From the IMG/VR virus record IMGVR_UViG_3300013121_000002, positions 43,976 through 107,975 of that record: 64,000 bases of DNA; one strand, written 5' to 3'. The translations under genes and the position numbers were made by a program. The first letter of the stretch is position 1, and every line of letters starts with the position of its first letter. Positions 10,755-57,630 of the stretch are shown here, one piece after another. Under the pieces are notes generated by a model that saw nothing but the letters and a program-made list of their open reading frames with translations, did no database searches and had not been told where the DNA came from. Source of the stretch: a virus (lineage: Duplodnaviria; Heunggongvirae; Uroviricota; Caudoviricetes).

Positions 10755-11396
10755 TTAAACGAACAGGCCCTTGGGCGGTCGCCGGATCGGCGCGGACGGG
10801 ATGCGCCGGGTAATCGGATTGCCCTCGGCGTCGAACAGTTCCGCCTGATCGCCGAGGCTGATCCAGCCCGGAGCACCGCTGCGGGCGAACAGTTCGAGGT
10901 AGGGTCCGGGGACCAGTTCGACGATCCTGTCGCGCACCTCATCCGGCTTGCGGGAGTGCTCGCGCAGCGGCGAGACGATGAGGCGGCGGACGCTGGCGCT
11001 CTGACGCTCCGGGGAACCGCGCGTGGCGAGCAGGCAGAGTTCCGGGTTGGCTCTGGTCCAGTAGCCCATGCCGACGAAAAAGTCCGCGAGGTCGCGCGGC
11101 TTCTTGTTCAGCTTCACCCAATGGAACGCAATCGTCTTGTAAACGAAACCCCACGATGCGATCAGGTCGAACGCCTGCGGCAGGTGGGTATCCGGCACCC
11201 ACAGGAACAACACGCTGTCATCGAGCGCCATGTCGCCGACCGGGAGCGCCTTGATGTCGGCAAAGCTCATCGTGTCGTAGTGCGCCTGCGGGGCGCGGCC
11301 TTCACCGTCCTCGCTGTACGTCTCGAAATGCCACGGAGGATCGACCAACAGCGCCCCGGCTTTGACGCGGCGGCGTGCTAACGAAATGACGTTCAC
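10755..11396 (-). CDS. MT-A70-family N6-adenine DNA methyltransferase
   Basis: DPPW catalytic motif (LLVDPPWHF). LFLWV motif. REHSRKPDE motif, typical of phage Dam/MT-A70 methylases. Confidence 0.8.
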   Translation of the reverse strand: MNVISLARRRVKAGALLVDPPWHFETYSEDGEGRAPQAHYDTMSFADIKALPVGDMALDDSVLFLWVPDTHLPQAFDLIASWGFVYKTIAFHWVKLNKKPRDLADFFVGMGYWTRANPELCLLATRGSPERQSASVRRLIVSPLREHSRKPDEVRDRIVELVPGPYLELFARSGAPGWISLGDQAELFDAEGNPITRRIPSAPIRRPPKGLFV

Positions 11397-18339: not shown

Positions 18340-19692
18340 TCAGCCGCCGCGACGGCCCCTCAGACTATCAAGCTGATCCTTGGCCGACTGCGAAGCATCG
18401 CCGACAGCGTCATCAGCTACGCGACGCCGGGGCGGTGCATCATCATCGTCAGCAGCCCGACGACGAGGCGGGGCATCGTCAGCGTCATCAGCCGGACGGC
18501 GACGTGGGGCGTCGTCATCGTCAGCCGGACGCCGCCGCGGCGGGGCGTCATCGTCATCAGCCGGACGACGCCGCGGTGGAGCGTCATCATCGTCAACAGC
18601 CCGACGACGGGGCGGCGCGTCGTCATCGTCGTAGCCACGCGGGCGACGGCGGTCATCGTCGTCGTCAGCCGGACGACGCCGCGGCGGTGCGTCGTCATCA
18701 TCAGCCGGACGGCGGCGAGGCGGGGCATCATCCTCATCGGCCGGACGGCGGCGCGAAGAACGCTCATCGACCTCATCGTCAACCGGACGACGGCGAGGAG
18801 GTGCGTCATCCTCGTCAACCCGGCGACGCGAGCGTGCGGCGCGTTCGTCGATCTCATCGTCATCGCGGCGGCTACCGCGGCGGTCATCATCGTCGTCACG
18901 GCGGCGATTACCGCGGCGGTCATCATCGTCGTCATCCCGGCGCGAAGAAACGAGCGGACGACGGTCATCATAATCGTCATCGCCGCCACGGCGCTCGACC
19001 TTGCCGTACAGAACCGCCTCCAAATAGTCGGCGGGGTAGTAGTGCAGGATGCTCGGTAGCGGATGGGCCATGATGTATTCCATCCACTGATCGTACCGCT
19101 CAGGCTTCGTCGAGAGCGGCGACGGGTCACGGTCGAACTCGACTGCCGTGTATTTCGTTCGCAGCTTCGTGCCAGCGCGGTTCATGTTCAGGTCGTACCC
19201 CTTGTCAGGGTGATCGAACGGCAGCAATGCATTGCTGCGCTTATCGATGGCGCGGTCGTTGACCTCCTTGAACAGCGTGCGAGGCAGCGACCAGACCTGC
19301 GGACCATCGCGCTGCGCATCGCGGTCGATGATCCAAGCGAGCGCCCGATACTGGGGCTTCAGCTTCTTGCGCTCGTCGGCGTCGGTCGAGCGTAGGGAAG
19401 CATTGCAGATCGGGCACTCCTCGTTGCGCATCTGGAGACAGAGATACGTCGCCGCTTCCGGCCCGATGTCGTAGTGCAGGTTGACGCCGATCTCCCAGTT
19501 GTTGCCGTACTTTTCAACGTCATCCCACGTTCCCGGCAGCACACGCAGACGATTCTCACCTTCCTTCGGTTTCCAAATCAGGACGGCGGGATCGACGTAG
19601 CTGTCGAAATTCCCGCCGCGCGCTTCATTCACTCGACGACGAACGTCATCGACCGTGCGGTTTTCACCGCGATAGACAAAACCCTTCACCAT
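18340..19692 (-). CDS. Zn-binding N-domain protein (possible gp32-like ssDNA-binding protein) with a long C-terminal tail of DDDDAPPRRRPA tandem repeats
   Basis: The N-terminal ~250 aa are globular with CLQMRNEECPICNASL. The C-terminal ~200 aa are roughly 12 copies of a 12-aa acidic/basic repeat. Location within the replication module. Confidence 0.5.
   Translation of the reverse strand: MVKGFVYRGENRTVDDVRRRVNEARGGNFDSYVDPAVLIWKPKEGENRLRVLPGTWDDVEKYGNNWEIGVNLHYDIGPEAATYLCLQMRNEECPICNASLRSTDADERKKLKPQYRALAWIIDRDAQRDGPQVWSLPRTLFKEVNDRAIDKRSNALLPFDHPDKGYDLNMNRAGTKLRTKYTAVEFDRDPSPLSTKPERYDQWMEYIMAHPLPSILHYYPADYLEAVLYGKVERRGGDDDYDDRRPLVSSRRDDDDDDRRGNRRRDDDDDRRGSRRDDDEIDERAARSRRRVDEDDAPPRRRPVDDEVDERSSRRRPADEDDAPPRRRPADDDDAPPRRRPADDDDDRRRPRGYDDDDAPPRRRAVDDDDAPPRRRPADDDDAPPRRRPADDDDAPRRRPADDADDAPPRRRAADDDDAPPRRRVADDAVGDASQSAKDQLDSLRGRRGG
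18420..18900. repeat. Tandem 36-bp coding repeats (about 12 copies)
   Basis: Repeated gccggacgacgccgcggcggggcgtcatcgtcatca-like units. On the minus strand they encode ADDDDAPPRRRP. Confidence 0.7.
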
Positions 19693-20260: not shown

Positions 20261-21304
20261 CTACCTCCCCAACAGCAGCTTGCCGCACGCCAGCACCAGT
20301 GGCGACGCGCCGTCGAAATGATTGAACGGCTGCGAGAACGCATCGAGGATTTCGAGCGCCCGGCCGACCTGCGCTTCCGCCGTCGCGGTCAGCGCAATCT
20401 TGGTCATATACGCCCGCACGACGTGACGCACCGATTCCGGGTCCACCGCAGCCTCACTTAGCTCGGCGAGCATCCGCTGAACGTCCGACCAGCGCCCGCG
20501 GCTGTTGAGCAGGCGGGCAAGCTCGAATGCCTGCGGCGCGGTCGCTGCCGAATGCAGCAGTTCACCTGCCTCCTCCTTATTCGTTACGTCAGCGCAAAGC
20601 GTGAGGTTGGACAGCGCCTGCCGCGGCGAACCATGCGCCTCCCTGACACACAAGCCCACCACGTCGTCGGTCGCCGCCAGCTTCTCGGCGTCCACAATGC
20701 CGTACAACAGGTCCGCCAAATCCTGCTTGCCGACCGGCTTGAGATCGAGGCGCATACACCGCGTGCGGATCGTCTCGGGCACCTTGGTCGGCTCCGTGGT
20801 GCAGAGCATCCAGTAGACGTGCTCTGGGGGCTCCTCGGTAGCCTTCAGGATCGACTTCCATGCCTGCGCCGACAGAGCGTGGCATTCGTCAATCAACACC
20901 ACCTTGATGCGGCCCTCGCCGAGCGGGAGATAGCGCAGCCCATCCATCACATCGCGCATGTTCTCGATGCCGGTGTGCGTCGCCGCGTCGATCTCGATGA
21001 GACTGCCCGGCAGGCAACCCAACTCGGCTGCCGCGATCCGGGCCAACGTCGTCTTGCCGGTGCCGGACGGGCCGGTGAATAGAAGCGTCTTGGCTAACCC
21101 CTTCGCTATCGCGCGCTCCAGCGCCTTCACCACCGCATCCTGACCAACCACCTGCGAGAACTTCGTCGGCCGGTACTTCGTTATCAAACCATCAGACATT
21201 GCCGCGCTTCCATGTTGAGGTGAATGTTCCGGCTGCTTCCATCTTATCCCACGCCCGACCCCATGACGCCTCGACCGTAATGGGCACCACGCGCGCCCAC
21301 TCAA
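20261..21304 (-). CDS. AAA+ clamp-loader ATPase (DnaX/RFC-like)
   Basis: Walker A FTGPSGTGKTTLARIAA. Walker B VVLIDECHALS. Sensor and SRC-like regions. Confidence 0.8.
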   Translation of the reverse strand: MSGRAWCPLRSRRHGVGRGIRWKQPEHSPQHGSAAMSDGLITKYRPTKFSQVVGQDAVVKALERAIAKGLAKTLLFTGPSGTGKTTLARIAAAELGCLPGSLIEIDAATHTGIENMRDVMDGLRYLPLGEGRIKVVLIDECHALSAQAWKSILKATEEPPEHVYWMLCTTEPTKVPETIRTRCMRLDLKPVGKQDLADLLYGIVDAEKLAATDDVVGLCVREAHGSPRQALSNLTLCADVTNKEEAGELLHSAATAPQAFELARLLNSRGRWSDVQRMLAELSEAAVDPESVRHVVRAYMTKIALTATAEAQVGRALEILDAFSQPFNHFDGASPLVLACGKLLLGR

Positions 21305-25030: not shown

Positions 25031-26113
25031 TTAGCGACCGCTGGTAGCGACCTCGATGTGGCCGTTGTGACGGAACCACCAGAGAAACTGCCGCGAAACA
25101 CCACTCGCGAGCGCGTCGCTCACCTTCATGCCCTTGCGGAGCTTCGCGAACTCGTTGAAGCGATCCGAGCCGTCGCGATACGGATTTCCCTTCACGACGA
25201 TCTTGAGCTTCGCGTTGTCCGGGAAGTCGGTCGCCTTCCGTCCGCGCTTGCCGCCAGTCGGCAACGCCGTTGCAGCCTTGCGGGCCGGGGCCTTCGCAAC
25301 AGCAGCCGCCTTGCCGCGGGCCGGGGCCTTCGCAGCGGCCTTCGCAGGGGCCTTCGCCGCAGCCTTGCCGCGGGCCGGGGCCTTCGCAGCAGCAGCAGCC
25401 TTGCCGCGGGCCGGGGCCTTCGCGGCGGCCTTCGCAGGAACCTTCGCAGCAGCCTTCGCCGGGGCCTTCGCAGCGGCCTTCGCAGGAGCCTTCGCAGCGG
25501 CGGCCTTGCCACGGGCCGGGGCCTTCGCGGCGGCAGCAGCCTTGCCGCGGGCCGGGGCCTTCGCGGCGGCAGCAGCCTTGCCACGGGCCGGGGCCTTCGC
25601 AGCGGCCTTCGCGGCGGCCTTCGCAGGGGCCTTCGGTGCAGCAGGGGCCTTCGGTGCAGCAGCCTTCGCAGCCCGCGGAGCACGCTTCGGGGCCGTCGTC
25701 TCGACCTCCGTAGTCACAGTCGCATCCATAGTTCCAACTCCTTCTGCGGACGATCCAGCATCAGCATCGACCGCGGTTACATCATCAGCACCACCTCCCG
25801 TCTCCTCGACTTCAGCAGCACCAGTTTCCTGCCCGGCATCGCCGGGCTCGTCAGCAACGATCCGCCCGGAACCAACAGGCACCTCGTCGGGGAAAGCCGG
25901 AAGCGGCGTATTCCCGGACGACTTCTTGTTGTCCTCGACCACGTCTGTCGCCGCATTCAACCACTCCTGCGCCTCGCGGCTCAGTGTTTTCCATGCGTCG
26001 TCGTCGATGATCTGACCTGCGCTGAAAATGCGGAGCTTCAACGCCTGATCCGTCTCCCCGTCCTTGCGCTCAATCTTGAGCTTCGACAGGAACTCACCAA
26101 GCAAAGCACTCAT
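25031..26113 (-). CDS. Histone H1-like / AlgP-like Ala-Lys repeat DNA-binding protein with globular N- and C-terminal domains
   Basis: The central ~140 aa are made of KAAAKAPARGKAAAAA-type repeats. The C-terminal part KLKIVVKGNPYRDGSDRFNEFAKLRKGMKVSDALASG is globular. Confidence 0.6.
   Translation of the reverse strand: MSALLGEFLSKLKIERKDGETDQALKLRIFSAGQIIDDDAWKTLSREAQEWLNAATDVVEDNKKSSGNTPLPAFPDEVPVGSGRIVADEPGDAGQETGAAEVEETGGGADDVTAVDADAGSSAEGVGTMDATVTTEVETTAPKRAPRAAKAAAPKAPAAPKAPAKAAAKAAAKAPARGKAAAAAKAPARGKAAAAAKAPARGKAAAAKAPAKAAAKAPAKAAAKVPAKAAAKAPARGKAAAAAKAPARGKAAAKAPAKAAAKAPARGKAAAVAKAPARKAATALPTGGKRGRKATDFPDNAKLKIVVKGNPYRDGSDRFNEFAKLRKGMKVSDALASGVSRQFLWWFRHNGHIEVATSGR
25260..25690. repeat. 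Coding tandem repeats (Ala/Lys-rich, about 36-48-bp units)
   Basis: Repeated gccttcgcagcggccttcgcaggggccttcgc-like units. Confidence 0.65.
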
Positions 26114-28825: not shown

Positions 28826-30313
28826 TCATTCCTCGTCGGCAGCGCCGCCGCCCGGCTGTCCGGTGCGAGCCTGCATCAGCGACCAGTAGGTATCCGACAC
28901 CGGGGCCGACTGGACAACATACTGCCCTAGCCCATACGCCTGCGAAATCAAAATCGACTCATGGAACGGCGGCGCATTACGCGCGAACTCGACGTTGATG
29001 CGCGCCAGCCCCAGCATCTTCTCCTCGGCGGTCTGGCTGTAGGTGAGCACGTTGTCGGCGATATTCAGCTTGCGCACGTCCTCGGCCACCATGTCGCCAC
29101 GCGTCCGCTTGGCATTCAGGCTCGACCGATTTGATTGCGTCGGGAACACCCCGGCCATGTTGCGCTCGGCGCAAACGCCGCGCAGCCCTTCATAGATGGT
29201 GCCGAGGCTCATGCGATAGTTGGCGGCATCGACCTTCATCAGGTCGGGGTAATCGACGATCAGGATCGTCGGCACGAACCGCGCCGTGACCTCAAGGTGA
29301 TCGAGATAAGAGCGTAGCAGGTCGAGGGTGAGCGTGCCAGTCGGGAACTGCTTGATGAGGAGACGGCCAAGGTTGAACTCCTCGACGCGCTGGCGCAGCG
29401 CATCCTCGGCGGCCGGGTCGGCGAAATTGATTTCGGGATGACGTGTCTCGATCCGCCAATCGCGGAGCTTGAACTGCTCCTTGTCGTCAAAGAGGAGCAC
29501 CGTCTGGACCACATCCTCCTGCCAGCCGGATGCAAACAAACTCTGATAGTAGCGCCCGGCGATGCGCATTTCGTCGAACTCAAGGCTAATGTGCAGGATG
29601 CGCTCGCGCTGCATCAGGCCGCGGCGGCCGACGTGAACGCAGAACCACGACTTACCCGAGCCCTTCGGTGCGAGGTAGAGCAGCATTTCCTTCGGCGTCG
29701 GGCCGATGCCGAAGCGGTCGAGTTCCTTGATGCCGAGCGACAGCGACGCGTGCGCCGTGCTTTCGAGAAAGGTAAGCGTCCGCGCCGTATCGTTTAGCTG
29801 GACGCCTGTGCTGAACGTGTTGGTGCCCAGCCCCTCGAACCGCAACCCCTTGCTAACGATATTGATGATGTCGTCAGTGCGGTTTTCATCCCCTTGCGAC
29901 CAACGCTCCATCACGTCGGTCAGCATCGTCTTGACGTACTGGTCCTTGAGGAAATGCTGGGTCCGGTTGGCTATGTACTCGGCGTTCAGGCCGCGGGTCA
30001 GGCTGACGAGATCACCGAGAAACTTGCGCAGGCGCGGCCCCTGTTTGTCGTTTGGCGACAGCGACGAACCAAACAGGTCATCAACGTGAACGAGGCCCGG
30101 CGCACGCCGGTACATTTTTCGATAGTTGAGGAGCTTCGCCGCGACCTCGCGGTACAGGCCATCATCGAAGTCGCGTTCGCGAACCTGCCCGGCGATGATG
30201 CCTCCCCACTGCTCATCGACGAGCAGCGCCGCCAAGATCGACTCCTGTAGGGACGCCGCCAGATTGGTCGGCTCATCCGAATCGCCGCCAGAAAGCCGTC
30301 GCCGCTCGACCAC
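28826..30313 (-). CDS. DnaB-like replicative helicase (N-terminus MVERRRLSGG)
   Basis: Walker A LAPKGSGKSWF and a RecA-fold C-terminal domain. Size 495 aa. Lies next to the primase. Confidence 0.7.
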   Translation of the reverse strand: MVERRRLSGGDSDEPTNLAASLQESILAALLVDEQWGGIIAGQVRERDFDDGLYREVAAKLLNYRKMYRRAPGLVHVDDLFGSSLSPNDKQGPRLRKFLGDLVSLTRGLNAEYIANRTQHFLKDQYVKTMLTDVMERWSQGDENRTDDIINIVSKGLRFEGLGTNTFSTGVQLNDTARTLTFLESTAHASLSLGIKELDRFGIGPTPKEMLLYLAPKGSGKSWFCVHVGRRGLMQRERILHISLEFDEMRIAGRYYQSLFASGWQEDVVQTVLLFDDKEQFKLRDWRIETRHPEINFADPAAEDALRQRVEEFNLGRLLIKQFPTGTLTLDLLRSYLDHLEVTARFVPTILIVDYPDLMKVDAANYRMSLGTIYEGLRGVCAERNMAGVFPTQSNRSSLNAKRTRGDMVAEDVRKLNIADNVLTYSQTAEEKMLGLARINVEFARNAPPFHESILISQAYGLGQYVVQSAPVSDTYWSLMQARTGQPGGGAADEE

Positions 30314-30517
30314 CGCCTGCTCCCCTGATCCATGAAGGACGACAGTGGTAGCACAACGCCGAATGAAAAAAGAAGGCCCCCCGGATGCCCTCGCGGGGAG
30401 CCTTCACTTTTGCCCACCTATCACATACCCCAGCCGGTGGCCTCCGGGGCAGAGCGTGCCACACTAGTGAGTGGCACACCCTATGTGGTGATGACGCTAA
30501 CGAATGCAAGAGGGAGA

Positions 30518-30548
30518 CATAACGAAACGGGGAGGCTTTCGCCTCCCC
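30518..30548 (-). terminator. Terminator-like conserved hairpin module (type 1, copy 0)
   Basis: GGGGAGGC-GAAA-GCCUCCCC followed by GUUUCGUUAUGU on the minus strand. Lies in the leader of the DnaB gene. Confidence 0.45.
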
Positions 30549-30632
30549 GCTCGACCATGCCCCACCTTGGCTCACCGCACCGGACCCGGCCGCGCCACAC
30601 CTCGGCTTGCCTTGCCACACCTCGAAAATTGA

Positions 30633-31322
30633 TTAGGCTTTCGCGACCTTGAACGAGGTCACGCCGAACCGACCGTAAGTCGGACGGAAATCGGCGACGC
30701 CGACGAGACGACCGGCCTGTTCGATCACCTCGCGCAACGTAGAAGGCTCGATGTATTCCGGCAGAAGAACCATGATCTGGAACGTCGCCTTCCACCCGGA
30801 GCGCAGCGCCGGGCGAACACGAGTGACGCCGTTCCGCTGGATCATCACACGACGCCTGTCGAGGTAGTCCCAAGTCTTGAGCCCGGTCGGAGCGAGTTCA
30901 GTCAGCGAGACGACACCCGCCTTGAACAGGTCCATCGCCGACTTGCGCGGCGACCGCGGGTCTTGCCGGAACTTCGCGGCGGCGATAATCGCCTGCCGCA
31001 GATACTCGCCGGGAACGCTAATGAGCCCCCTGTCATTGCGGTACAGGTAGCTCTCCACATCGTCGGTTTTCTTCGCCTTGGAGTTCTTGGCGGCGACGCT
31101 CTTGGCCTCGACCGCCTCGTTGTTCCAGCGATGGAACAGGAGATCGCTGGTGCCGGTGATCTCGACCGTGGCGGTGTACGGAATCCCCGCCTCAATGGTA
31201 TTTGCCCCACCATTGGTGGGTTCGCTGACATGATCGACGCGCTTGCGCCGTGAACCACTTGCTTCCACGTTAAAACCTCCATTTGCCATCGCGATCACAC
31301 TCGGGATTGAGCACTGTCGCAT
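30633..31322 (-). CDS. Hypothetical protein
   Basis: 229-aa ORF. Possible start at MANGGFNVEASG. Confidence 0.45.
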   Translation of the reverse strand: MRQCSIPSVIAMANGGFNVEASGSRRKRVDHVSEPTNGGANTIEAGIPYTATVEITGTSDLLFHRWNNEAVEAKSVAAKNSKAKKTDDVESYLYRNDRGLISVPGEYLRQAIIAAAKFRQDPRSPRKSAMDLFKAGVVSLTELAPTGLKTWDYLDRRRVMIQRNGVTRVRPALRSGWKATFQIMVLLPEYIEPSTLREVIEQAGRLVGVADFRPTYGRFGVTSFKVAKA

Positions 31323-31332
31323 CTAGGCGAAT

Positions 31333-31364
31333 AATCAAATGGAGTGTTCGTTAGCGTTTGTCAA
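31333..31364 (-). promoter_or_regulatory. Promoter-like TTGACA-N17-CATTTG element directly downstream of the terminator
   Basis: Minus-strand reading: TTGACAaacgctaacgaacactcCATTTG. Confidence 0.3.
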
Positions 31365-31366
31365 CT

Positions 31367-31397
31367 ACAAACGAAACGGGGAGGCTTTCGCCTCCCC
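31367..31397 (-). terminator. Intrinsic terminator, type 1, copy 1
   Basis: GGGGAGGCGAAAGCCUCCCC + GUUUCGUUUGU on the minus strand. Confidence 0.5.
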
Positions 31398-31517
31398 GCT
31401 CGACCATACCCTGCCCGGCCGCGCCATACCTCACCGAACCGCGCCCCACCTTAGCCCTCCGCACCGTGCCCGACCGTGCCTTGCCATGCCAAACCTCACC
31501 CGACCTCACCATGCCTC

Positions 31518-31553
31518 TAATAAAAAGGGCGGCTGCCTTTCGACAACCGCCCA
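31518..31553 (-). terminator. Intrinsic terminator, type 2
   Basis: Minus strand: GGGCGGUUGUCGAAAGGCAGCCGCCC followed by UUUUUAUUA. Confidence 0.6.
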
Positions 31554-31646
31554 CCATGCCTTACCCGACCGAACCCTCACCTTCGCCCGGCCGTACCGGA
31601 CCCAACCTAGCCTCACCAGACGCAAATCGTCACAAGCCGGTGCCAA

Positions 31647-31678
31647 ACCAAATGGATGCTTCGTTAGCGTTTGTCAAC
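31647..31678 (-). promoter_or_regulatory. Promoter-like TTGACA-N17-CATTTG element
   Basis: Minus strand: TTGACAaacgctaacgaagcatcCATTTG. Confidence 0.3.
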
Positions 31679-31699
31679 CACAAACGAAACGACCTCACG

Positions 31700-31744
31700 T
31701 CCATTACAAAAAGAGCGAGGAGGCTTTCGCCAACTCGCTCTTTC
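31700..31744 (-). terminator. Intrinsic terminator, degenerate type 1 copy
   Basis: Minus strand: GAGCGAGUUGGCGAAAGCCUCCUCGCUC + UUUUU. Confidence 0.5.
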
Positions 31745-31784
31745 CGTTCAAAATGAGGTAACACTATGAGGTACCGCCTCACCG

Positions 31785-31817
31785 CTCAAATGGATGGTTC
31801 GTTAGCGGTTTGTCAAC
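31785..31817 (-). promoter_or_regulatory. Promoter-like TTGACA-N17-CATTTG element
   Basis: Minus strand: TTGACAaaccgctaacgaaccatcCATTTG. Confidence 0.3.
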
Positions 31818-31818
31818 C

Positions 31819-31849
31819 ACAAACGAAACGGGGAGGCTTTCGCCTCCCC
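31819..31849 (-). terminator. Intrinsic terminator, type 1, copy 3
   Basis: Same hairpin + GUUUCGUUUGU. Confidence 0.5.
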
Positions 31850-31995
31850 GCTCGACCATAGCTCACCGCGCCTGACCTAGCCTAGCCAGACCCCACCCGA
31901 CCACACCGTACCAAACCAAACCTGACCACACCCTACCGGACCCGACCGGACCATGCCGGACCTCACACTACCTAGCCCGACCTCACCCAGCCTAT

Positions 31996-32030
31996 AATAA
32001 AAAGGGCGGCTGCCTTTCGACAACCGCCCA
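31996..32030 (-). terminator. Intrinsic terminator, type 2, second copy
   Basis: GGGCGG...CCGCCC hairpin + UUUUUAUUAUAGG. Confidence 0.6.
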
Positions 32031-32103
32031 CCATGCCTTACCCGACCGAACCGGACCACACCACGCCTAAGCGTGCCGCTCCTGACCTTACCGGGGTGCA
32101 AAC

Positions 32104-32135
32104 CAAAATAAATACATCGTTAAGTGTTTGTCAAC
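32104..32135 (-). promoter_or_regulatory. Promoter-like TTGACA-N17-TTATTT element
   Basis: Minus strand: TTGACAaacacttaacgatgtatTTATTT. Confidence 0.3.
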
Positions 32136-32147
32136 AGCACAAACGAA

Positions 32148-32179
32148 ACGAGGAGGCTTTCGCCTCCCCGCTCGACCAT
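32148..32179 (-). terminator. Intrinsic terminator, type 1, copy 4 (variant)
   Basis: GGGGAGGCGAAAGCCUCCUC + GUUUCGUUUGUGCUG. Confidence 0.45.
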
Positions 32180-32273
32180 GCCCTGCCCGGCCGCGCCATA
32201 CCTCACCGAACCGCGCCCCACCTTGCCGTAGCCAACCTTACCGCAGCGTCCACTTAAACCAAAATCAAACTAC

Positions 32274-32831
32274 CTAGTCAACTCGGTCGCCAATCGTTTG
32301 GTCCCGAACTTGCGCTAACCAACCGAGAAGGAACGAACCAACATAGCCGGGAAAGGCACGATCCAGAGCCTCGGGAACAAAAGGCACGGCACGCAGCATT
32401 GATTTCAAACCAACCGGCTCATTTCTTATATCCTGCCAATTCGCCAGCGCCCCGGCGACCGCGCGACCAAGCAGGAGCCGCTGACCCTGATTGAGCGGAC
32501 GCCCGGCATGTTCAAGGAGGTGCTTCCTGACACTACGCGAGTGCTCCGGGTATTCCGGCGAGATCGACTTCACCGGAACGAACCGGCCGCTATCGGTGAG
32601 CAGGCCGCGCCGTTTCAGTTCATGGTAGATGCCCTCCAGCAGCCAGTCGATGGTGTTGCTGGTGCCGTCAGCCGCGTCGGTCGGCAGCGCCGTCCCGGCG
32701 TCGGCGATCACAGTGCCGCCAAGGCTCGCCCCGGAGATCAGCGCCCGGACCCGGTTCCTGACCTCGCGCAGTTGGGTCTGGCTCATGGTCGGCAGCGCCA
32801 CAAGCAGGGTCTGAAACTCGGCGTCTTTCAC
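32274..32831 (-). CDS. Hypothetical protein
   Basis: 185-aa ORF divergent from the 32983 gene. Confidence 0.45.
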   Translation of the reverse strand: MKDAEFQTLLVALPTMSQTQLREVRNRVRALISGASLGGTVIADAGTALPTDAADGTSNTIDWLLEGIYHELKRRGLLTDSGRFVPVKSISPEYPEHSRSVRKHLLEHAGRPLNQGQRLLLGRAVAGALANWQDIRNEPVGLKSMLRAVPFVPEALDRAFPGYVGSFLLGWLAQVRDQTIGDRVD

Positions 32832-32877
32832 CTATTGATTTCCCTATACAGGTTACGCCATATGACGAACTGCTAAC

Positions 32878-32962
32878 CAAACGCCATAGGCATAGTGCCG
32901 TAGGTAGGTTAGCAACTTGCTAACCAAACGCCATAGGCATGGTGCCGTAGGCAGGTTAGCAA
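32878..32962. promoter_or_regulatory. Two tandem ~44-bp palindromic operator-like repeats in a divergent promoter region
   Basis: ttgctaaccaaacgccataggcat(a/g)gtgccgtagg(t/c)aggttagcaa twice. Each has a 9-bp inverted repeat TTGCTAACC/GGTTAGCAA. Confidence 0.55.
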
Positions 32963-32982
32963 AACAAGAAAGGAGCCACTAG

Positions 32983-33453
32983 GTGGCTACTGCAAGAAAG
33001 CCGAAGGCTGCGCCTCAAAACGCAACGCCGGAACCGAAGCCCACCGCCAAGCCGCATCGGCAGCAGGTGGACAAATCGCGGATCATTCCGCTCCCGACCA
33101 TCCTCGAACGCAAGATCAAGTTCGGGCCAACGCTCAACGATCATGTCGAGCGTGTTCACGTCGCTCTGTACGCCAAGAGCGACGAATACCGCAAGTTCCT
33201 GTCGGCCGTCTATGACGACGACGCGGTGGAAGGCTCCCTGCGCGCCGACAACCTCGAACTCGCCCGGCTCATCCGCGACTACGCTGCGGAGAACGGCATG
33301 ACCGAAGTCGTCAAAAAGCCGGACGGCGGACAGCGCACCAAGGAATCCATCGTGAAGGCGCTCAACGTGGTGCTTCGGCGCTACGGCATCGCGCGGGAAA
33401 TCCGGCGCAACACCCTCGGCGGCGAGTACGTCGGCACCGGCAACGGCGACTAA
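32983..33453 (+). CDS. Hypothetical basic protein
   Basis: 156-aa ORF with a Lys/Pro-rich N-terminus. A GGAG RBS sits at 32970. Confidence 0.5.
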   Translation: MATARKPKAAPQNATPEPKPTAKPHRQQVDKSRIIPLPTILERKIKFGPTLNDHVERVHVALYAKSDEYRKFLSAVYDDDAVEGSLRADNLELARLIRDYAAENGMTEVVKKPDGGQRTKESIVKALNVVLRRYGIAREIRRNTLGGEYVGTGNGD

Positions 33454-33462
33454 CGGAAACTG

Positions 33463-34740
33463 GTGAGGGGTGCTAGGCTCCCCTCACCTTTCCCCCAAGC
33501 GGATTTGAACGAAATGACGCAGCAAGTCGCGCGAATCGAGAACCTTCCGAAGCTCATCGAACAGGCCGCCAACACGCTGGCGCAAGCCACGAACTACGCG
33601 CAGGTACTCGATGCCCACAAGAAGGCGACTGTGGCCTACGACGCCGCCAAGCTGGCTGCCCGGCTGGCCGACAAGAAAGACGCTTACGACAAGATCATCG
33701 CTGCCTGCCGCAAGGTGCAGGCTGATGCGCTGGTGATCGCGGCGCAGGCTGAAATCCGCCTCGCTGACGAATACGACGCCGCCAAGGCGCGAGGTGAAGT
33801 TGCCGGTCATGGTGGTGGTCGAAATTTCAAGAGGGATAACGCCCCGCTTGAAAAAACAAAGCTCGCAGACATTGGCCTGACCCCGAAGCAGATGAGCGAT
33901 GCCCGCGCCGTCCGTGACGCCGAGAAGGCCGATCCGGGTGTTGTCGAGCGCACCGTGCGCAAGCGCATATCCGAAGGACATGAGCCCACCAAGGCTGCCG
34001 TCAAGCAGGCGGTGAAGGCCACCAACACCCACAAGCCGGTGGAACGCAAGCGCGCCTCCGTAGAGCGCAAGCGCAGCACCCCCGAGCCCGACAAAAAGCA
34101 GGAGCCAAACGTGGCGACCACCTCCGTCAACAACAGAATGAATATCGACCTCACGGTGTGGGCGCGCTTCGTTGAACTTGCAAAGAAACTGAACACGAAC
34201 GCAGCCGATCTGAGCGGTAGGATCGTTACAGAGTTCACCGACAAGGGTGAGCCCGAGATCGACGCGACCACGTTGTCCATGTCGGCACAACAGAAGCTCG
34301 AAACTGCCATCCGCCAGCACAAGCGCAAGCTCGACGAGAGCTTCGCCGAGGCTGTCCGGCTTGCCCTCGTGGCCGAGCGCGACCAATTCCTCGGCGACAC
34401 CATCAAGCGTTTGCAGGAGCGCGAGCGCCACGCCAACGCCGTCCTCCACAACAACGCCGGGATCATGCCGCGTTCCGAGTTCCGGCTGATCCTCGCTGCG
34501 CTGAGCCCGGATTCGCGCCGCAATTTCTCTGACGAAAGGATCGCTGCGGCGTTCAACGCGTTCAAGCAGTACGAACCAATTCTGGTAGCCCGAGCCAAGG
34601 ACGATCCGCTGCCGACAATCACGCCTGCTGATCTGACAGCCATGCGCGCTGCCGCCGAAGCTGCCCGCAAGGCCAAGCGGAAGTCGTCGGCGGAAGCGAA
34701 GGCCAACAAAGCTAACGGCAGCAGCGTTAGTGTGTCCTGA
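33463..34740 (+). CDS. Hypothetical Ala/Lys-rich coiled-coil protein (start possibly at Met 33514)
   Basis: 425-aa ORF. The antisense ORFs in this region are Arg-rich artefacts. Confidence 0.5.
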   Translation: MRGARLPSPFPQADLNEMTQQVARIENLPKLIEQAANTLAQATNYAQVLDAHKKATVAYDAAKLAARLADKKDAYDKIIAACRKVQADALVIAAQAEIRLADEYDAAKARGEVAGHGGGRNFKRDNAPLEKTKLADIGLTPKQMSDARAVRDAEKADPGVVERTVRKRISEGHEPTKAAVKQAVKATNTHKPVERKRASVERKRSTPEPDKKQEPNVATTSVNNRMNIDLTVWARFVELAKKLNTNAADLSGRIVTEFTDKGEPEIDATTLSMSAQQKLETAIRQHKRKLDESFAEAVRLALVAERDQFLGDTIKRLQERERHANAVLHNNAGIMPRSEFRLILAALSPDSRRNFSDERIAAAFNAFKQYEPILVARAKDDPLPTITPADLTAMRAAAEAARKAKRKSSAEAKANKANGSSVSVS

Positions 34741-38000: not shown

Positions 38001-38239
38001 AGGTTGTGCCGGGTTACTCGGGACGGGACACCGGCGCTCCGTGTAGGAGAAGTTCCCATAGCTAACAAAGGGAAGCCGGTCTGGCTGTAGCAGAAGCGCA
38101 CCGGCCCCGTATGCGCCGGAAATTGCTTCTCCAATTCAAAAAGTCAATAGGTTAGGTGTTGACGATCAGCAACACCCGGTACTAGATGTGGCTGTCGGAT
38201 CATACGCAGGGTCCGACTGGGCACGGCGACCACAGGGGA

Positions 38240-38272
38240 GGGGCGGGAACCAGTTTCCCGCCCCTTTCGTTT
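38240..38272 (+). terminator. Rho-independent terminator
   Basis: GGGGCGGGAA-CCAG-UUUCCCGCCCC followed by UUUCGUUU. Confidence 0.55.
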
Positions 38273-40208
38273 AGAGGTCGATGATCGACCCGGACGGCGT
38301 CTTGCGGATGGTCGTGACCGACTTGAACCGTTGCGTTTCCGGCGTCTGGTGGTCGATGAGGAAAACCTGCCGAGCCAGCCGCTCGGCTCGATCCGCCAGC
38401 AGTTCAATAAGATCGGCAATCCCCTCCTCGGACAGCCCGCGCGTCGGCTCGTCGAAGATTTCGAGGTTGACCGTCACCCCGGCGTAATTGAGCAGCACTT
38501 CGCTCAACGCCATCGCGCCGACGAGACGCAGCCGCTGACCCTCGCCGCCGCTGAATGCGTCAAGGGGCACAGAGCGTCGGCCCTGTGCCCCTACCACACC
38601 ACGCCGTGCCATGCCGTACCCCGCCGTACCTTGGCGTGTCTCGCCCGGCCTCACCACGTCGATCTCATATGGGGTAATGCTTACGTTAATACCACGTTGG
38701 ATCGAACCAGAGGCCGTCTCGCGCTCGACCGCATACTCGATCTGCCAACCAAGCAGGCCGACACTCTCCAGCACCGAGTTCGTCGTCATCGTCAACTGAG
38801 CCAACACATCCTCCATGATGAACAGGCGCACGTCCTTGAAGCCTTTGACCCAAAACCGGGTCCGGGCGATCCGCTGCTCCAGTTTCGCCAGTTCGTCGTT
38901 CGCCGCATCGATCTTGTCGTCGAGCCCGGCGAGCTTCTGCTTGAGCGTGACGATCTGCGTCTGGTGAGGATTGGTTTCCTTCTCGGCCGCTTCGATCTGC
39001 CGGGTCAAAGCCGCGACTTCGCCTTGCAGATTGACATGGTGCGGCCGGGCGACGTTGAGTTGCGTCAGCGCCGCCGCCTCGGCGTCGAGGTACTGGCGAT
39101 TGGCCTCCTCGATCCGGTCGAGCACCTTATGCGCCGCACGGTGGTCGGCGTCGAGCGAATCGAGCGACGCCGTCAGCTTAACGATCTCCTCCTCCACCTC
39201 CGCGCGCTGCCGATGCAGTTCGTCCCGGTGCTTGGACAAGTCCGCCTTCTTGGTCGGCTGGCCGCAGGTTGGACACGTCCCGCCCGCCTTGAGCCCGGCG
39301 ATCTCGCGGTCGAGGCGTTTCATGTCGGACTTCATTCCGGCGAGCTTCACGTCGGCGCGGTCGTGCTCCGAACGCGCATCGCTGAGCAAGCCGCGGTATT
39401 TGGTGATGTCATCCCGCGTCGTCTTGAGTTGCAGCCCGGCGCTTTCCAGCGCGAGTTCGGCGTCGGCGACGCGGCGGTCGAGCTTGGCCAGTTCCTCCCG
39501 TGCCGCCACGAGCCGCGTGTTGAAGCCGTCGAGCCGGGCGGCGTGTTTCTCCTGCCACGCGGTGCTGTCCTCGCGCGCCGTGTCCAGCAGCGATTGTAGC
39601 TGACGCTGCGTGCCCTTCAGTCCGGTAAGCTCACCCTCAACCGTTGCCCGGTCATGGTCGAGGTTGGTGGCGACCCGGCTGGCCGTTGCCGACAGCGCAT
39701 CCCAGCGGTCGAGTTGCAGCACCTCGCTGAACAGTTCCATCTTCTCGCGCGGCTGGAGATCGAAGAACAGCGGGCGACCCTGACCAAACAGGATTGCGTG
39801 CGAGAACAGGTCGAAGCTCAGGCCGATGGTGGCTGCCGCATCGACCGCCGAATCCTTACCGTTGATAGTGAATGAATTGGGGTTCGAGCACCGTTCGAAC
39901 GTGACGTGCTCGCCGTCGATCTCGACCAGCACCATGACACGCGAGGATTTGCCCTGCGCGCTGTCCCGCGGCTTCACGTCAGGGTTCTTGAGCCCGGAGA
40001 TCGTCTTGCCGTACAGGCACCACGTCAGCGCGTTCCAGATGGTTGATTTGCCGGAACCGTTCGCGCCGAGTCGCGGCTCGACCTCGTTGATGCCGCGGAT
40101 GAAGTGAAGGCCGCCGCGCTCGTCGTCCGGCTCGATCTGAAAGGTATGCGGCCCGACACCAAACGATCCGAAGCTGGCAAGCTCGATCTTAATGAAATGA
40201 ATCTCCAC
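38271..40208 (-). CDS. SbcC/Rad50-like ATPase
   Basis: Walker A GANGSGKST. Long coiled coils with a CPTCGQP zinc hook. ABC signature/D-loop FSGGEGQRLRLVGAMAL...IFDEP. Confidence 0.75.
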   Translation of the reverse strand: MEIHFIKIELASFGSFGVGPHTFQIEPDDERGGLHFIRGINEVEPRLGANGSGKSTIWNALTWCLYGKTISGLKNPDVKPRDSAQGKSSRVMVLVEIDGEHVTFERCSNPNSFTINGKDSAVDAAATIGLSFDLFSHAILFGQGRPLFFDLQPREKMELFSEVLQLDRWDALSATASRVATNLDHDRATVEGELTGLKGTQRQLQSLLDTAREDSTAWQEKHAARLDGFNTRLVAAREELAKLDRRVADAELALESAGLQLKTTRDDITKYRGLLSDARSEHDRADVKLAGMKSDMKRLDREIAGLKAGGTCPTCGQPTKKADLSKHRDELHRQRAEVEEEIVKLTASLDSLDADHRAAHKVLDRIEEANRQYLDAEAAALTQLNVARPHHVNLQGEVAALTRQIEAAEKETNPHQTQIVTLKQKLAGLDDKIDAANDELAKLEQRIARTRFWVKGFKDVRLFIMEDVLAQLTMTTNSVLESVGLLGWQIEYAVERETASGSIQRGINVSITPYEIDVVRPGETRQGTAGYGMARRGVVGAQGRRSVPLDAFSGGEGQRLRLVGAMALSEVLLNYAGVTVNLEIFDEPTRGLSEEGIADLIELLADRAERLARQVFLIDHQTPETQRFKSVTTIRKTPSGSIIDL

Positions 40209-51421: not shown

Positions 51422-51486
51422 ACGCACCCCTTGACGAACGATAACGAAATACCCATTTATTAGTCGTCCGGTAGGAGGGACACAAA

Positions 51487-55018: not shown

Positions 55019-55094
55019 TCCCCGGTAGCTCAACTGGTAGAGCACCCGCCTGTTAAGCGGACGGTTGCTGGTTCGAGCCCGGCTCGGGGAGCCA
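55019..55094 (+). tRNA. tRNA-Asn (GTT) with encoded CCA
   Basis: D-arm GCTCAACTGGTAGAGC. Anticodon loop CTGTTAA. T-arm GCTGG-TTCGAGC-CCGGC. 3' end TCGGGGA-G-CCA. There is one acceptor mismatch, so tRNAscan confirmation is needed. Confidence 0.55.
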
Positions 55095-56472: not shown

Positions 56473-56669
56473 TGTGGCAGCCTATCGAAACCGCCCCGTT
56501 CGACGTGCGCATCCTCGTCGGCGCTTGGATCAACGGTCACTGGTACTGTCAAATCACCATCGGCCGCCTTGGGCGACCCGGCCCACTCTGGCCGTACCTC
56601 GGCAAGAAACTGCCCCACATCAGCAAACCAACCCACTGGCATAATCTCCCGGAGCCGCCCAATGGTTGA
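56473..56669 (+). CDS. DUF551-like protein
   Basis: MWQPIETAPFDVRILVGAWINGHWY pattern. Confidence 0.45.
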
Positions 56670-57525: not shown

Positions 57526-57630
57526 ATTTTTCCGTTATCGTTGTCAGATTTCGTTTGCAAACGATAATGAACCGACCTATGTAGGTGTTACCGGGATGAC
57601 CCGGCAACGATTTGTAGGAGAATCAATCCC

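What the first reader, a model, noticed from the sequence alone, without database searches (positions are those of the whole stretch)
30490..32270. Tandem array of double-hairpin modules that read as terminator-plus-promoter units on the minus strand: candidate small-RNA gene array or antitermination cascade upstream of the replication operon
A ~60-bp unit (cgttagcgtttgtcaaccacaaacgaaacggggaggctttcgcctccccgctcgaccat) occurs five times, one of them solitary at 30497. A second hairpin type (gggcggctgcctttcgacaaccgccc, preceded by taataaaaa) occurs twice. On the minus strand every hairpin is followed by a U-rich tract (GUUUCGUUUGU or UUUUUAUUA). The type-1 unit is then immediately followed by TTGACA-N17-CATTTG/TTATTT. 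So the region reads as repeated terminator-then-promoter modules bracketing 100-250-nt segments. One copy carries a 1-nt insertion that preserves the hairpins but breaks the overlapping ORFs. Conservation is therefore at the RNA/DNA level, not the protein level. The array lies directly upstream of the DnaB-helicase/replication genes on the same strand. The phage encodes its own NusG/RfaH-like factor and a sigma factor. Possibilities: (a) a family of 4-5 phage sRNAs; (b) a multi-terminator leader requiring processive antitermination for timed replication-gene expression; (c) RNA decoys.
Basis: partly seen in the sequence, partly recalled or inferred. Interest (0 to 1): 0.85.

Follow-up and report, generated by a model that had tools for sequence, protein, structure and literature searches.

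The report
Phage VIPR guide-RNA array with vipr gene
The "terminator-plus-promoter hairpin array" is a phage VIPR locus, a CRISPR-like RNA-guided DNA-silencing system first described in 2026 preprints, so it is a new example of a very recently described kind rather than a new kind.

Summary
The repeats and hairpins are real. The 65-140 nt segments between the hairpins are strict 5-nt repeats, (GGYNN)n on the minus strand. A 218-aa gene (30633-31289, minus) also lies inside the interval.

Relatives of that protein occur in at least 153 viral contigs. In 73 of 80 fetched loci, GG-period-5 tracts lie on the gene's strand next to it, at 38-70% GC. None of the window's replication genes travels with it.

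A profile of the family hits the solved "SUSP1 Vipr protein" (E = 1e-10). Most of the residues reported to hold GGY are conserved. The predicted fold matches Cas7-type RAMPs.

This matches the VIPR systems of bioRxiv 10.64898/2026.04.26.720920 and .720927. In those, Vipr protomers polymerise on a vrRNA, one per GGY/NN repeat. The NN bases read double-stranded DNA with one base skipped per repeat, silencing rival phages.

The window has six good vrRNA candidates (12-28 repeats), each ending in a GAAA-loop terminator hairpin. One unit is decayed.

No targets were found for this phage's guides, and no accessory vap gene.

One oddity remains: an 81-nt GGYNN tract inserted in frame in the SbcC-like gene.

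The antitermination and decoy readings are not supported. The small-RNA-array reading is right in kind.

The parts
30633..31289 (-). vipr gene: a minimal RAMP (Cas7-like) protein of 218 aa. An alternative upstream ATG lies at 31322. An identical 218-aa product is on record as P0001.
   Evidence: ORF list. P0001 is 100% identical. The A1 profile hits PDB 36pp_D 'SUSP1 Vipr protein' at E = 1.2e-10. BLASTP against the SUSP1 protein gives 30% identity over 188 columns, E = 7e-13. All 50 listed Foldseek PDB hits are CRISPR effector entries: Csm3, type VII Cas7, Cas7-11, Cmr. phrog_4652, unknown function. No Pfam, NCBIfam or PADLOC hit.
32136..32242 (-). vrRNA candidate 1: 14 GGYNN repeats (32242-32173), then the type-1 tail (hairpin 32173-32146 with GAAA loop, then GUUUCGUUUGU). 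Its last 10 repeats are near-identical to those of vr6.
   Evidence: (family D2, 98%).
32105..32134 (-). Promoter-like element TTGACA-N18-TATTTT inside and after the second hairpin of tail 1, placed to start vr2.
   Evidence: 10 of 12 matches. Inference only, with no transcript data.
31994..32092 (-). vrRNA candidate 2: 12-13 repeats (32092-32028), then the type-2 tail (hairpin 32029-32004 with GAAA loop, then UUUUUAUUAU). A TTGTCG-N18-TATTAT element is embedded in the tail.
   Evidence: -22.8 kcal/mol, z = -4.6.
31816..31992 (-). vrRNA candidate 3: 28 repeats (31992-31853), then the type-1 tail (hairpin 31853-31826). This tail copy carries the 1-nt insertion in its second hairpin.
   Evidence: z = -6.3. 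The structural paper reports natural vrRNAs of up to 30 repeats.
31700..31780 (-). Decayed unit: only two GGYNN repeats, then a diverged hairpin (31743-31710, GAGCGAGUUGGCGAAAGCCUCCUCGCUC) and a U tract. The second-hairpin and promoter-like half unit (31691-31650) follows it.
   Evidence: families D3, I17; -30.6 kcal/mol, z = -5.6.
31517..31617 (-). vrRNA candidate 5: 7 + 1 + 5 repeats with two 1-nt phase shifts (31617-31551), then the type-2 tail (hairpin 31552-31527).
31364..31515 (-). vrRNA candidate 6: 23 repeats (31515-31401), then the type-1 tail (hairpin 31401-31374).
   Evidence: z = -5.5.
31336..31365 (-). Promoter-like element GTTGACAAACGCTAACGAA-N5-CCATTTG directly upstream of vipr. 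The same motif precedes vr5 (31678) and an unrelated gene at 51430 (+).
   Evidence: Inference only.
30515..30621 (-). vrRNA candidate 7: 14 repeats (30621-30552) starting 12 nt after the vipr stop codon, then the type-1 hairpin (30552-30525). No separate promoter is seen, so it is probably the 3' end of the vipr transcript.
   Evidence: In relatives, tracts commonly begin at the vipr stop codon.
38563..38650 (-). Orphan GGYNN tract of 13 repeats plus hairpin (38592-38563), lying in frame inside the SbcC/Rad50-like gene 38271-40208. It corresponds to a 27-aa insertion absent from homologues. Whether it belongs to the system is uncertain.
   Evidence: z = -4.8. RET-to-SGGE spacing is 54 aa here and 27 aa in 10 relatives.

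Best explanation
The interval is a VIPR (Viral Interference Programmable Repeat) locus. It holds a vipr gene for a small Cas7-like RAMP protein. On the same strand it is flanked by six vrRNA genes, five upstream and one downstream, plus one decayed copy.

Each vrRNA is a run of 12-28 pentamers GGYNN, followed by an invariant tail. The tail is a GAAA-loop hairpin with a U tract that also serves as an intrinsic terminator. Some tails also carry a promoter-like element for the next unit.

The rest is inferred by homology with the characterised SUSP1 and P. fulva systems. One Vipr protomer binds each repeat and sequesters GGY. The two variable bases of each repeat are presented for pairing. The filament reads double-stranded DNA as NNxNNx, with one base skipped per repeat (usually a codon wobble position), and it blocks transcription of the target. 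The expected targets are competing phages, prophages, satellites or rival VIPR systems.

Shown here: the homology, the fold, conservation of most contact residues, the repeat anatomy and strand, the linkage across many phages, and the folding of the tails. Inferred here: expression, filament formation, the pairing rule for this phage's guides, and their targets.
For: Periodicity. In-phase CC on the + strand (9 or more of 12 in a 60-nt window) occurs only at the locus and at one other site in 64 kb. In-phase GG on the + strand is never seen. Ten consecutive CC-N3 units give 17 matches against 0.00 in shuffles.

Repeat composition. Position 3 is a pyrimidine in 86% of units in the window and 89% of 4,773 units in relatives. 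Positions 4 and 5 have 1.9-2.0 bits of entropy.

Linkage. 73 of 80 loci encoding a relative of the protein have such tracts on the gene's strand beside the gene. There are 303 chains on that strand against 14 on the other.

Protein. The family profile hits SUSP1 Vipr at E = 1.2e-10 and BLASTP gives E = 7e-13. SUSP1 H17, K33, E71, K82, R138, D177 and R179 align to identical residues: H53, K63, E95, K106, R159, D200 and R202. All are invariant in alignment A1 except K63, which is nearly invariant. W178 aligns to F201 and K88 to R112, both conservative. The AF2 model (pLDDT 74.6) matches only CRISPR RAMP-containing effector entries in the PDB.

Positive control. The same detector recovers one tract upstream and three downstream in SUSP1, as the paper reports from sRNA-seq.

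Code in this clade. In relative L041, ten consecutive repeats match 20/20 to the antisense of the invariant G-loop codons of rival vipr genes, with every skipped base on a wobble position. L041's own gene scores only 18/24.

Self-targeting. No guide of 12 or more repeats reaches 80% NN match in the window, as the paper reports for its systems.
Against: No target was found for any of this phage's guides. Exact cores of 10-12 repeats gave nothing in IMG/VR or in the metagenome collection. Two chance-level hits came from the genome collection. Only near-perfect targets could have been detected.

No vap accessory gene was found. There is no SUSP1 vap1 homologue in the window, and no neighbour family is shared by more than 17 of 81 loci.

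SUSP1 R39 aligns to an alanine here. The thumb region of the model has low confidence.

There are no expression data. The promoters are consensus matches only. vr5 has phase shifts and several guides contain degenerate repeats.
Confidence: 0.9

Rival explanations
1. The locus is a VIPR locus, but it regulates the phage's own genes (for example the timing of replication or late genes) rather than attacking competitors.
For: The cassette sits in the early/replication region beside divergent regulatory-looking intergenic DNA. No external target was found. The window covers only 64 kb, while the identical protein P0001 is recorded on a 107,975-bp contig.
Against: No guide of 12 or more repeats reaches 80% NN match anywhere in the 64-kb window, and the best values equal those of shuffled guides. 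The paper found no self-targeting in its systems. The cassette's neighbours differ in every related phage.
Confidence: 0.06
2. The array is a multi-terminator leader or antitermination cascade controlling the downstream DnaB/SNF2/primase operon. Read-through would be provided by the phage NusG-like factor.
For: Strong minus-strand terminator-like hairpins lie upstream of the replication genes. NusG-like and sigma-70-family genes are present.
Against: The hairpins always follow GGY/NN tracts and flank vipr. In 80 related loci the tracts follow vipr, and none contains a homologue of these replication genes. Tails differ widely among relatives, and only 12 of 256 have a hairpin followed by a U tract. 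The hairpin is therefore a lineage-specific tail, not the conserved feature.
Confidence: 0.02
3. The G-rich periodic tracts act at the DNA level as an origin of replication, an R-loop or G-quadruplex element, or binding iterons. Alternatively the RNAs act as protein sponges or decoys.
For: Strong GC skew of -0.3 to -0.56 on the + strand. The locus sits in the replication module. GG-N3 repeats could in principle form two-tier quadruplexes (inference).
Against: The tracts are tied to a RAMP protein gene rather than to replication genes. Position 3 is constrained to pyrimidine and positions 4-5 are unconstrained, as expected for the published Vipr contacts and not required by G4 or R-loop formation. 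A homologous protein has been solved bound to such RNA.
Confidence: 0.02

Closest known systems
VIPR system of Escherichia phage SUSP1 (type II VIPR; bioRxiv 10.64898/2026.04.26.720920 and 10.64898/2026.04.26.720927)
   Same: Both have a homologous Vipr protein of about 200 aa with conserved GGY-contacting residues. Both have vrRNAs made of GGY/NN pentamers on the vipr strand, upstream and downstream of the gene. Both have an invariant structured 3' tail, are phage-encoded, and have no CRISPR array or cas genes.
   Different: The proteins are only 30% identical. No vap1 homologue is present. Here five to six guides lie upstream and one downstream, whereas SUSP1 has one upstream and three downstream. 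The tails here are GAAA-loop terminator hairpins of two kinds with embedded promoter-like elements, and no pseudoknot was identified or tested for. Two guides have 23 and 28 repeats, against 9-16 in SUSP1/P. fulva, though up to 30 are reported elsewhere. The type (I-VII) could not be assigned without the authors' tree.
Class 1 CRISPR-Cas backbone (Cas7/Csm3/Cmr4 filaments on crRNA)
   Same: Both use a RAMP fold with a G-loop. Both place one protomer per fixed RNA step and use periodic base flipping.
   Different: The step is 5 nt with three bases sequestered, rather than 6 nt with one flipped. The guide is noncontiguous. There is no repeat-spacer array, no cas1/cas2, and no other cas genes.
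TRAP binding to the Bacillus trp leader: (G/U)AG triplets with 2-3 nt spacers, upstream of a terminator (from my own knowledge)
   Same: Both have a degenerate 5-nt periodic RNA motif read by a protein oligomer, located just 5' of a terminator hairpin.
   Different: The protein here is a RAMP and no TRAP homologue was seen. TRAP is an 11-mer ring acting in attenuation. Here the periodic part carries variable guide information.
Phage DSL-LC04 (OR003939.1) gene WJZ48083.1, annotated 'helix-turn-helix transcriptional regulator'
   Same: It is the closest isolated-phage homologue, at 65% identity. Three GGYNN tracts lie directly upstream on the same strand.
   Different: Its annotation is probably wrong. 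It also has a 147-aa gene overlapping the vipr stop codon, which is shared by 8 of the 80 loci but absent from this window.

Membership tests
VIPR system | Vipr protein homologous to an experimentally characterised Vipr | tested here: met
   The profile of 30 family members against PDB chain 36pp_D 'SUSP1 Vipr protein' gives E = 1.2e-10. BLASTP against the SUSP1 protein gives 30% identity, E = 7e-13. tblastn finds SUSP1 and related phages directly.
VIPR system | RAMP fold (RRM core, glycine-rich loop, thumb) | tested here: met
   AF2 model with pLDDT 74.6. All 50 listed Foldseek PDB hits are CRISPR effector entries (Csm3, type VII Cas7, Cas7-11, Cmr), the best at about E = 1e-5. The G-loop motif GVxDFRPTYGRF is invariant. 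The thumb tip is modelled with low confidence (residues 149-152).
VIPR system | Residues that recognise G1, G2 and Y3 of each repeat and clamp the DNA | tested here: met
   SUSP1 H17, K33, E71, K82, R138, D177 and R179 align to identical residues H53, K63, E95, K106, R159, D200 and R202. W178 aligns to F201, K88 to R112 and M72 to Y96. R39 aligns to A72 and is not conserved.
VIPR system | Tandem YNNGG/GGYNN repeats (4 or more, typically 9-16, up to 30) on the vipr strand in the flanking intergenic DNA | tested here: met
   Six tracts of 12-28 repeats, all on the minus strand like vipr. A Markov simulation expects 0.00 chains of 9 or more units, and 6 are observed.
VIPR system | GGY conserved while NN is hypervariable | tested here: met
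   Position 3 is Y in 86-89% of units, although the detector did not impose this. Positions 4 and 5 have 1.91-1.99 bits of entropy. Paralogous guides share a tail but differ in NN.
VIPR system | Invariant structured 3' tail after the repeat tract | tested here: met
   There are two tail types. Copies are near-identical within each type and all fold well, z = -3.5 to -6.3. The pseudoknot described for the SUSP1 clade was not looked for. Tails are not conserved across the wider family.
VIPR system | Accessory vap gene next to vipr (described as typical, not universal) | tested here: not met
   No SUSP1 vap1 homologue in the window. The adjacent 185-aa ORF has no hit in any library and no homologue in 80 related loci. 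No conserved neighbour family exists. The paper notes that stand-alone vipr genes occur.
VIPR system | Guides match natural targets under the 1-nt skip (NNx) rule at 80% NN or more; no self-targeting | tested here: inconclusive
   No target was found for the window's guides, using exact-core scans only. No self-target in the window. A clear NNx match of a relative's guide to rival vipr genes shows that the clade uses the code.
VIPR system | vrRNAs are expressed and co-purify with Vipr; the complex represses transcription of its target | not testable with these tools
   This needs sRNA-seq, pull-down and reporter assays.
VIPR system | Assignment to one of types I-VII (Vipr phylogeny, array architecture, vap) | not testable with these tools
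   The authors' tree and data S4 are not held. The only reference available here is type II SUSP1.
CRISPR-Cas | Array of identical direct repeats separated by unique spacers, with cas1/cas2 or other cas genes nearby | tested here: not met
   The repeat analysis shows pentamer tracts plus tails, not repeat-spacer units. The neighbours are replication genes. PADLOC finds nothing.
Known Rfam RNA families (including hammerhead-interspersed vrRNA arrays) | Match at the gathering threshold to a curated covariance model | tested here: not met
   Only one tRNA in the 64-kb window reaches threshold.

The most novel reading that the evidence does not exclude
The 81-nt GGYNN tract inserted in frame into the SbcC/Rad50-like gene is absent from 12 homologues where the site could be checked. 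It lies on the same strand as the array and ends in its own hairpin. It could be a footprint of how VIPR guide tracts are created or moved. The published work does not say how new vrRNAs arise. Alternatively it could be a working guide expressed from inside a coding gene, an architecture not listed in those papers.
Probability: 0.15. Interest if true: 0.75.

Novelty: new member of a known kind. Interest (0 to 1): 0.45.

Why it matters
VIPR was described only in 2026, as an RNA-guided DNA-recognition system proposed to predate CRISPR. This locus shows that the system can be recognised from raw sequence by its 5-nt GG periodicity next to a small RAMP gene, and that Pfam, NCBIfam and PADLOC do not yet recognise it.

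The clade found here is large: over 7,000 protein clusters at 90% identity and 1,443 representatives at 50%. It appears to lack an accessory gene and shows very long tracts.

This particular phage adds three features. The tails double as terminators and carry promoter-like elements. Guides reach 28 repeats. A guide-like tract is inserted in frame in a recombination gene.

A relative supplies a clear case of a guide aimed at the invariant G-loop codons of rival vipr genes. Its own gene falls below the 80% cutoff because its two arginine codons use the swapped codon families.

Tried and rejected
Rfam at gathering threshold returned only a tRNA.

DNA similarity to known phages gave only a weak hit over the vipr gene.

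I first considered TRAP-like attenuation, Rho-utilisation sites on the C-rich strand, G-quadruplex or R-loop origins, Chi-like arrays and MITEs. I dropped them once the tracts proved to be linked to one protein family and that family matched a solved Vipr structure.

Target searches:
- Window plus 80 loci with 0-3 nt skips: no better than shuffled guides. The perfect 3-nt-skip scores are only each tract matching itself.
- Eight public scans with exact NNx cores: nothing, apart from two chance-level genome hits. One overlaps the start of a PurC-like gene, and its unforced extension is 5/8.
- All-against-all test of 255 guide blocks under 0/1/2-nt skips on 0.9 Mb: no overall excess for the 1-nt skip.

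The type-1 tail sequence is absent from IMG/VR. The source-contig look-up for P0001 failed. The AFDB fold library was unavailable, so the paper's seed accessions could not be checked. The paper's supplementary tables are not held.

Five further weak GG chains in the window (2402-2451, 10774-10813, 21226-21270, 38210-38249, 56554-56598) have only 6 good units and no tail. I judged them to be noise.
Full report
**Observation**

Repeat analysis of 29500-33500 finds the hairpin core CGGGGAGGCTTTCGCCTCCCCG at 30528, 31377 and 31829. A one-mismatch copy lies at 32149 and a diverged copy at 31710-31743. The second hairpin occurs twice (31527-31552 and 32004-32029).

The terminator scan finds 12 terminator-like sites against 3.5 +/- 1.7 in shuffles. 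Its six strongest are these hairpins, all on the minus strand. As RNA they fold at -22 to -38 kcal/mol with z-scores of -3.5 to -6.3. The copy with the 1-nt insertion keeps both hairpins.

Two promoter-like sites lie in or after the tails.

Two things change the reading. First, the 65-140 nt segments between the hairpins are not anonymous. Family D1 showed a 5-nt period, NNRCC on the + strand, which is GGYNN on the minus strand. Windows of 60 nt with at least 9 of 12 in-phase CC dinucleotides occur only at 30536-30634, 31380-31533, 31837-32005, 32017-32105, 32152-32255 and one extra site at 38570-38663. In-phase GG on the + strand never reaches that level. Ten consecutive CC-N3 units match 17 times against 0.00 in shuffles.

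Second, the interval contains a gene, 30633-31322 on the minus strand. It lies between the solitary unit and the array.

**Anatomy on the minus strand**

After the stop codon of a 185-aa ORF (32274) the order is:
- vr1: 14 repeats, type-1 tail
- vr2: 12-13 repeats, type-2 tail
- vr3: 28 repeats, type-1 tail
- a decayed unit with two repeats and a diverged hairpin
- vr5: 7 + 1 + 5 repeats with two 1-nt phase shifts, type-2 tail
- vr6: 23 repeats, type-1 tail
- the gene
- vr7: 14 repeats starting 12 nt after the stop codon, type-1 tail

Every tract runs straight into its hairpin. Type-1 tracts end GGYAU GGUCG AGC and then the hairpin; type-2 tracts end GGCAU GGU and then the hairpin. Both hairpins have GAAA loops.

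**Linkage to the protein**

The 229-aa ORF has no Pfam, NCBIfam or PADLOC match. It falls in phrog_4652, of unknown function. An identical 218-aa product starting MANGG is on record, from a 107,975-bp JGI contig.

The protein has at least 153 relatives in IMG/VR. It also matches 7,108 protein clusters in the large collection and 1,443 representatives at 50% identity.

I scanned the 80 fetched loci, each oriented with the gene on the + strand, using the same periodicity test. 73 have in-phase GG tracts on the + strand, almost all directly upstream or downstream of the gene. Only two loci show a tract on the other strand. GC content ranges from 38% to 70%.

With a chain detector there are 303 chains on the gene strand and 14 on the other. 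Position 3, which the detector does not constrain, is a pyrimidine in 89% of 4,773 units. Positions 4 and 5 carry 1.99 bits of entropy.

None of the window's neighbours (185-aa ORF, DnaB-like helicase, SNF2 helicase, primase and others) has a homologue in those 80 loci. The only exception is a 23%-identical polymerase match in eight loci. No other gene family is a neighbour in more than 17 of 81 loci. The conserved unit is therefore the gene plus the tracts. Its position in front of the replication genes here is incidental.

**Identification**

A profile of 30 family members (A1) hits one solved structure: chain 36pp_D, "SUSP1 Vipr protein", E = 1.2e-10. A literature search on that name found two preprints. 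They are bioRxiv 10.64898/2026.04.26.720920 (discovery) and 10.64898/2026.04.26.720927 (cryo-EM).

They describe VIPR systems as follows:
- Vipr is a small RAMP protein.
- vrRNAs consist of 9-16 GGY/NN pentamers (up to 30 in some natural systems) followed by an invariant structured tail.
- One protomer binds each repeat.
- GGY is sequestered, and the NN bases pair with double-stranded DNA with one target base skipped per repeat, usually a codon wobble position.
- The result is transcriptional repression of competing phages, satellites or other VIPR systems.
- There are seven types with various accessory vap genes.

**Membership tests**

Sequence. BLASTP against the SUSP1 protein gives 30% identity over 188 columns, E = 7e-13.

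Functional residues. SUSP1 H17, K33, E71, K82, R138, D177 and R179 align to identical residues H53, K63, E95, K106, R159, D200 and R202. All are invariant in A1 except K63, which is nearly invariant. W178 aligns to F201, K88 to R112 and M72 to Y96. R39 aligns to A72 and is not conserved.

Fold. The AF2 model has mean pLDDT 74.6, with low confidence at the thumb tip. Its Foldseek matches in the PDB are all CRISPR effector entries: Csm3, type VII Cas7, Cas7-11 and Cmr. That library predates the Vipr entries. In the viral structure library the third hit is named "Cas system-associated RAMP superfamily protein".

RNA. Repeat number, strand, GGY conservation, NN variability and tail are all as described.

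Positive control. My detector finds one 12-repeat tract upstream of SUSP1 vipr and three downstream of the second gene. This is the arrangement the paper reports from sRNA-seq.

Accessory gene. None was found. The paper says vipr can be stand-alone.

Type. This cannot be assigned without the authors' tree.

**Targets**

Under the NNx rule no guide of 12 or more repeats reaches 80% NN match in the window or in the 80 loci. The best scores equal those of shuffled guides. This agrees with the reported absence of self-targeting.

Public collections could only be scanned for exact patterns, so only near-perfect targets were detectable. Cores of 10-12 repeats from vr1, vr2, vr3, vr6, vr7 and the vr1/vr6 shared core gave no hit in IMG/VR. 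Two vr3 cores gave none in the metagenome collection.

The shared core gave two hits in the genome collection, about what chance predicts. The better one overlaps the start of a PurC-like gene in a Verrucomicrobiota MAG, and its unforced extension is only 5/8. The targets of this phage's guides remain unknown.

**Evidence that the clade uses the published code**

An all-against-all test of 255 guide blocks showed no overall excess for the 1-nt skip on 0.9 Mb. One case is clear, however.

The guide that follows vipr in locus L041 has ten consecutive repeats whose NN bases read AAxCTxCCxTAxGTxGGxCGxAAxTCxCC. This is the exact antisense of codons G-D-F-R(CGN)-P-T-Y-G-R(AGR)-F, the invariant G-loop of this Vipr family.

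Eight loci score 21/24, with the central 20/20 matching and different wobble bases. 53 of 81 score at least 19/24 at the same site. L041's own gene scores 18/24, because its two arginines use AGA and CGA, the swapped codon families. The window's vipr scores 19/24.

**Terminator and promoter reading**

The tails are good intrinsic terminators by sequence. Across the family, however, tails vary widely. Only 12 of 256 tracts are followed by a hairpin with a U tract. Many tracts abut the vipr ribosome-binding site or stop codon. The terminator-type tail is therefore a feature of this lineage.

The motif GTTGACAAACGCTAACGAA-N5-CCATTTG follows the type-1 tails before vipr and before vr5. A near-copy at 51430 lies upstream of a Shine-Dalgarno-like GGAGG and an ATG. 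This supports, but does not prove, a promoter, possibly one read by the phage's own sigma factor. vr7 has no such element and is probably the 3' end of the vipr transcript. All of this is inference without transcript data.

**The extra site**

The tract at 38650-38586 (13 repeats, minus strand) plus a hairpin (z = -4.8) lies inside the SbcC/Rad50-like gene 38271-40208 (phrog_77, 6e-75).

Alignment with homologues from Edwardsiella phage ZHS and Vibrio phage SSP002 shows a 27-aa in-frame insertion exactly there, just before the ABC signature motif. In 10 of 18 further relatives where both flanking motifs could be located, the spacing is 27 aa against 54 aa here. None of the 18 has a GG chain.

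The tract is thus a lineage-specific 81-nt insertion of guide-like sequence into a coding gene. I cannot tell whether it is expressed as a guide or is a fossil. The parts of the papers I read do not describe such a case, nor how new guides arise.

**Verdict**

This is a VIPR locus: a new member of a kind described in 2026. The idea of a small-RNA gene array is right in kind, and the antitermination and decoy ideas are not supported.

The identity is well supported (about 0.9). Expression, the pairing rule for these particular guides, and their targets are inferred by homology.

Noticed in passing
window 38563-38673 (minus strand), inside ORF 38271-40208: An 81-nt GGYNN tract of 13 repeats, followed by a hairpin, is inserted in frame (27 aa) in the SbcC/Rad50-like gene just before the ABC signature motif. 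It is absent from all homologues where the site could be checked.
   Followed up: yes
L041:6597-6671 (IMGVR_UViG_3300043621_000102), and vipr genes of L020, L021, L049, L057, L058, L061, L070, L071: A relative's guide decodes, under the 1-nt skip rule, to the antisense of the invariant G-loop codons GDFRPTYGRF of rival vipr genes. Its own vipr falls below the 80% cutoff because its two arginine codons use the swapped codon families.
   Followed up: yes
window 32871-32962: Two tandem copies of a 47-nt unit, each bounded by the inverted repeat TGCTAACC...GGTTAGCA. They lie in the divergent intergenic region between the 185-aa ORF (minus) and the 156-aa ORF (plus) and look like operators.
   Followed up: no
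window 51430-51460 (+) and 57553-57570 (+): The motif found in the vrRNA tails (TTGACRAACGNTAACGAA-N5-CCATTTR) recurs at 51430, upstream of a Shine-Dalgarno-like GGAGG and an ATG. A weaker copy lies upstream of the DUF932 gene. It may be a phage promoter class.
   Followed up: partly
L086 (Phage DSL-LC04, OR003939.1 22429-23046): The closest isolated-phage homologue of Vipr (65% identity) is annotated 'helix-turn-helix transcriptional regulator' and has three GGYNN tracts directly upstream. The annotation is probably wrong.
   Followed up: partly
window 18408-18942 and 25280-25668: Long imperfect tandem repeats with periods of 36/108/144 nt and 12/24/36 nt. The first lies within the range of the gp32-like ORF 18340-19692 and the second within that of the unannotated ORF 25031-26113. 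They presumably encode low-complexity protein segments.
   Followed up: no
window 55019-55094 and 63503-63579 (+): Two phage-borne tRNA genes, Asn(GTT) and Gln(CTG).
   Followed up: no
L002, L003, L007, L011, L014, L027, L041, L046, L047 and others: Many relatives carry much longer tracts: the 95th percentile is 38 units and the maximum is 98. Frequent phase shifts occur and there are no hairpin tails. This may correspond to the 'staggered arrays' mentioned in the paper.
   Followed up: partly
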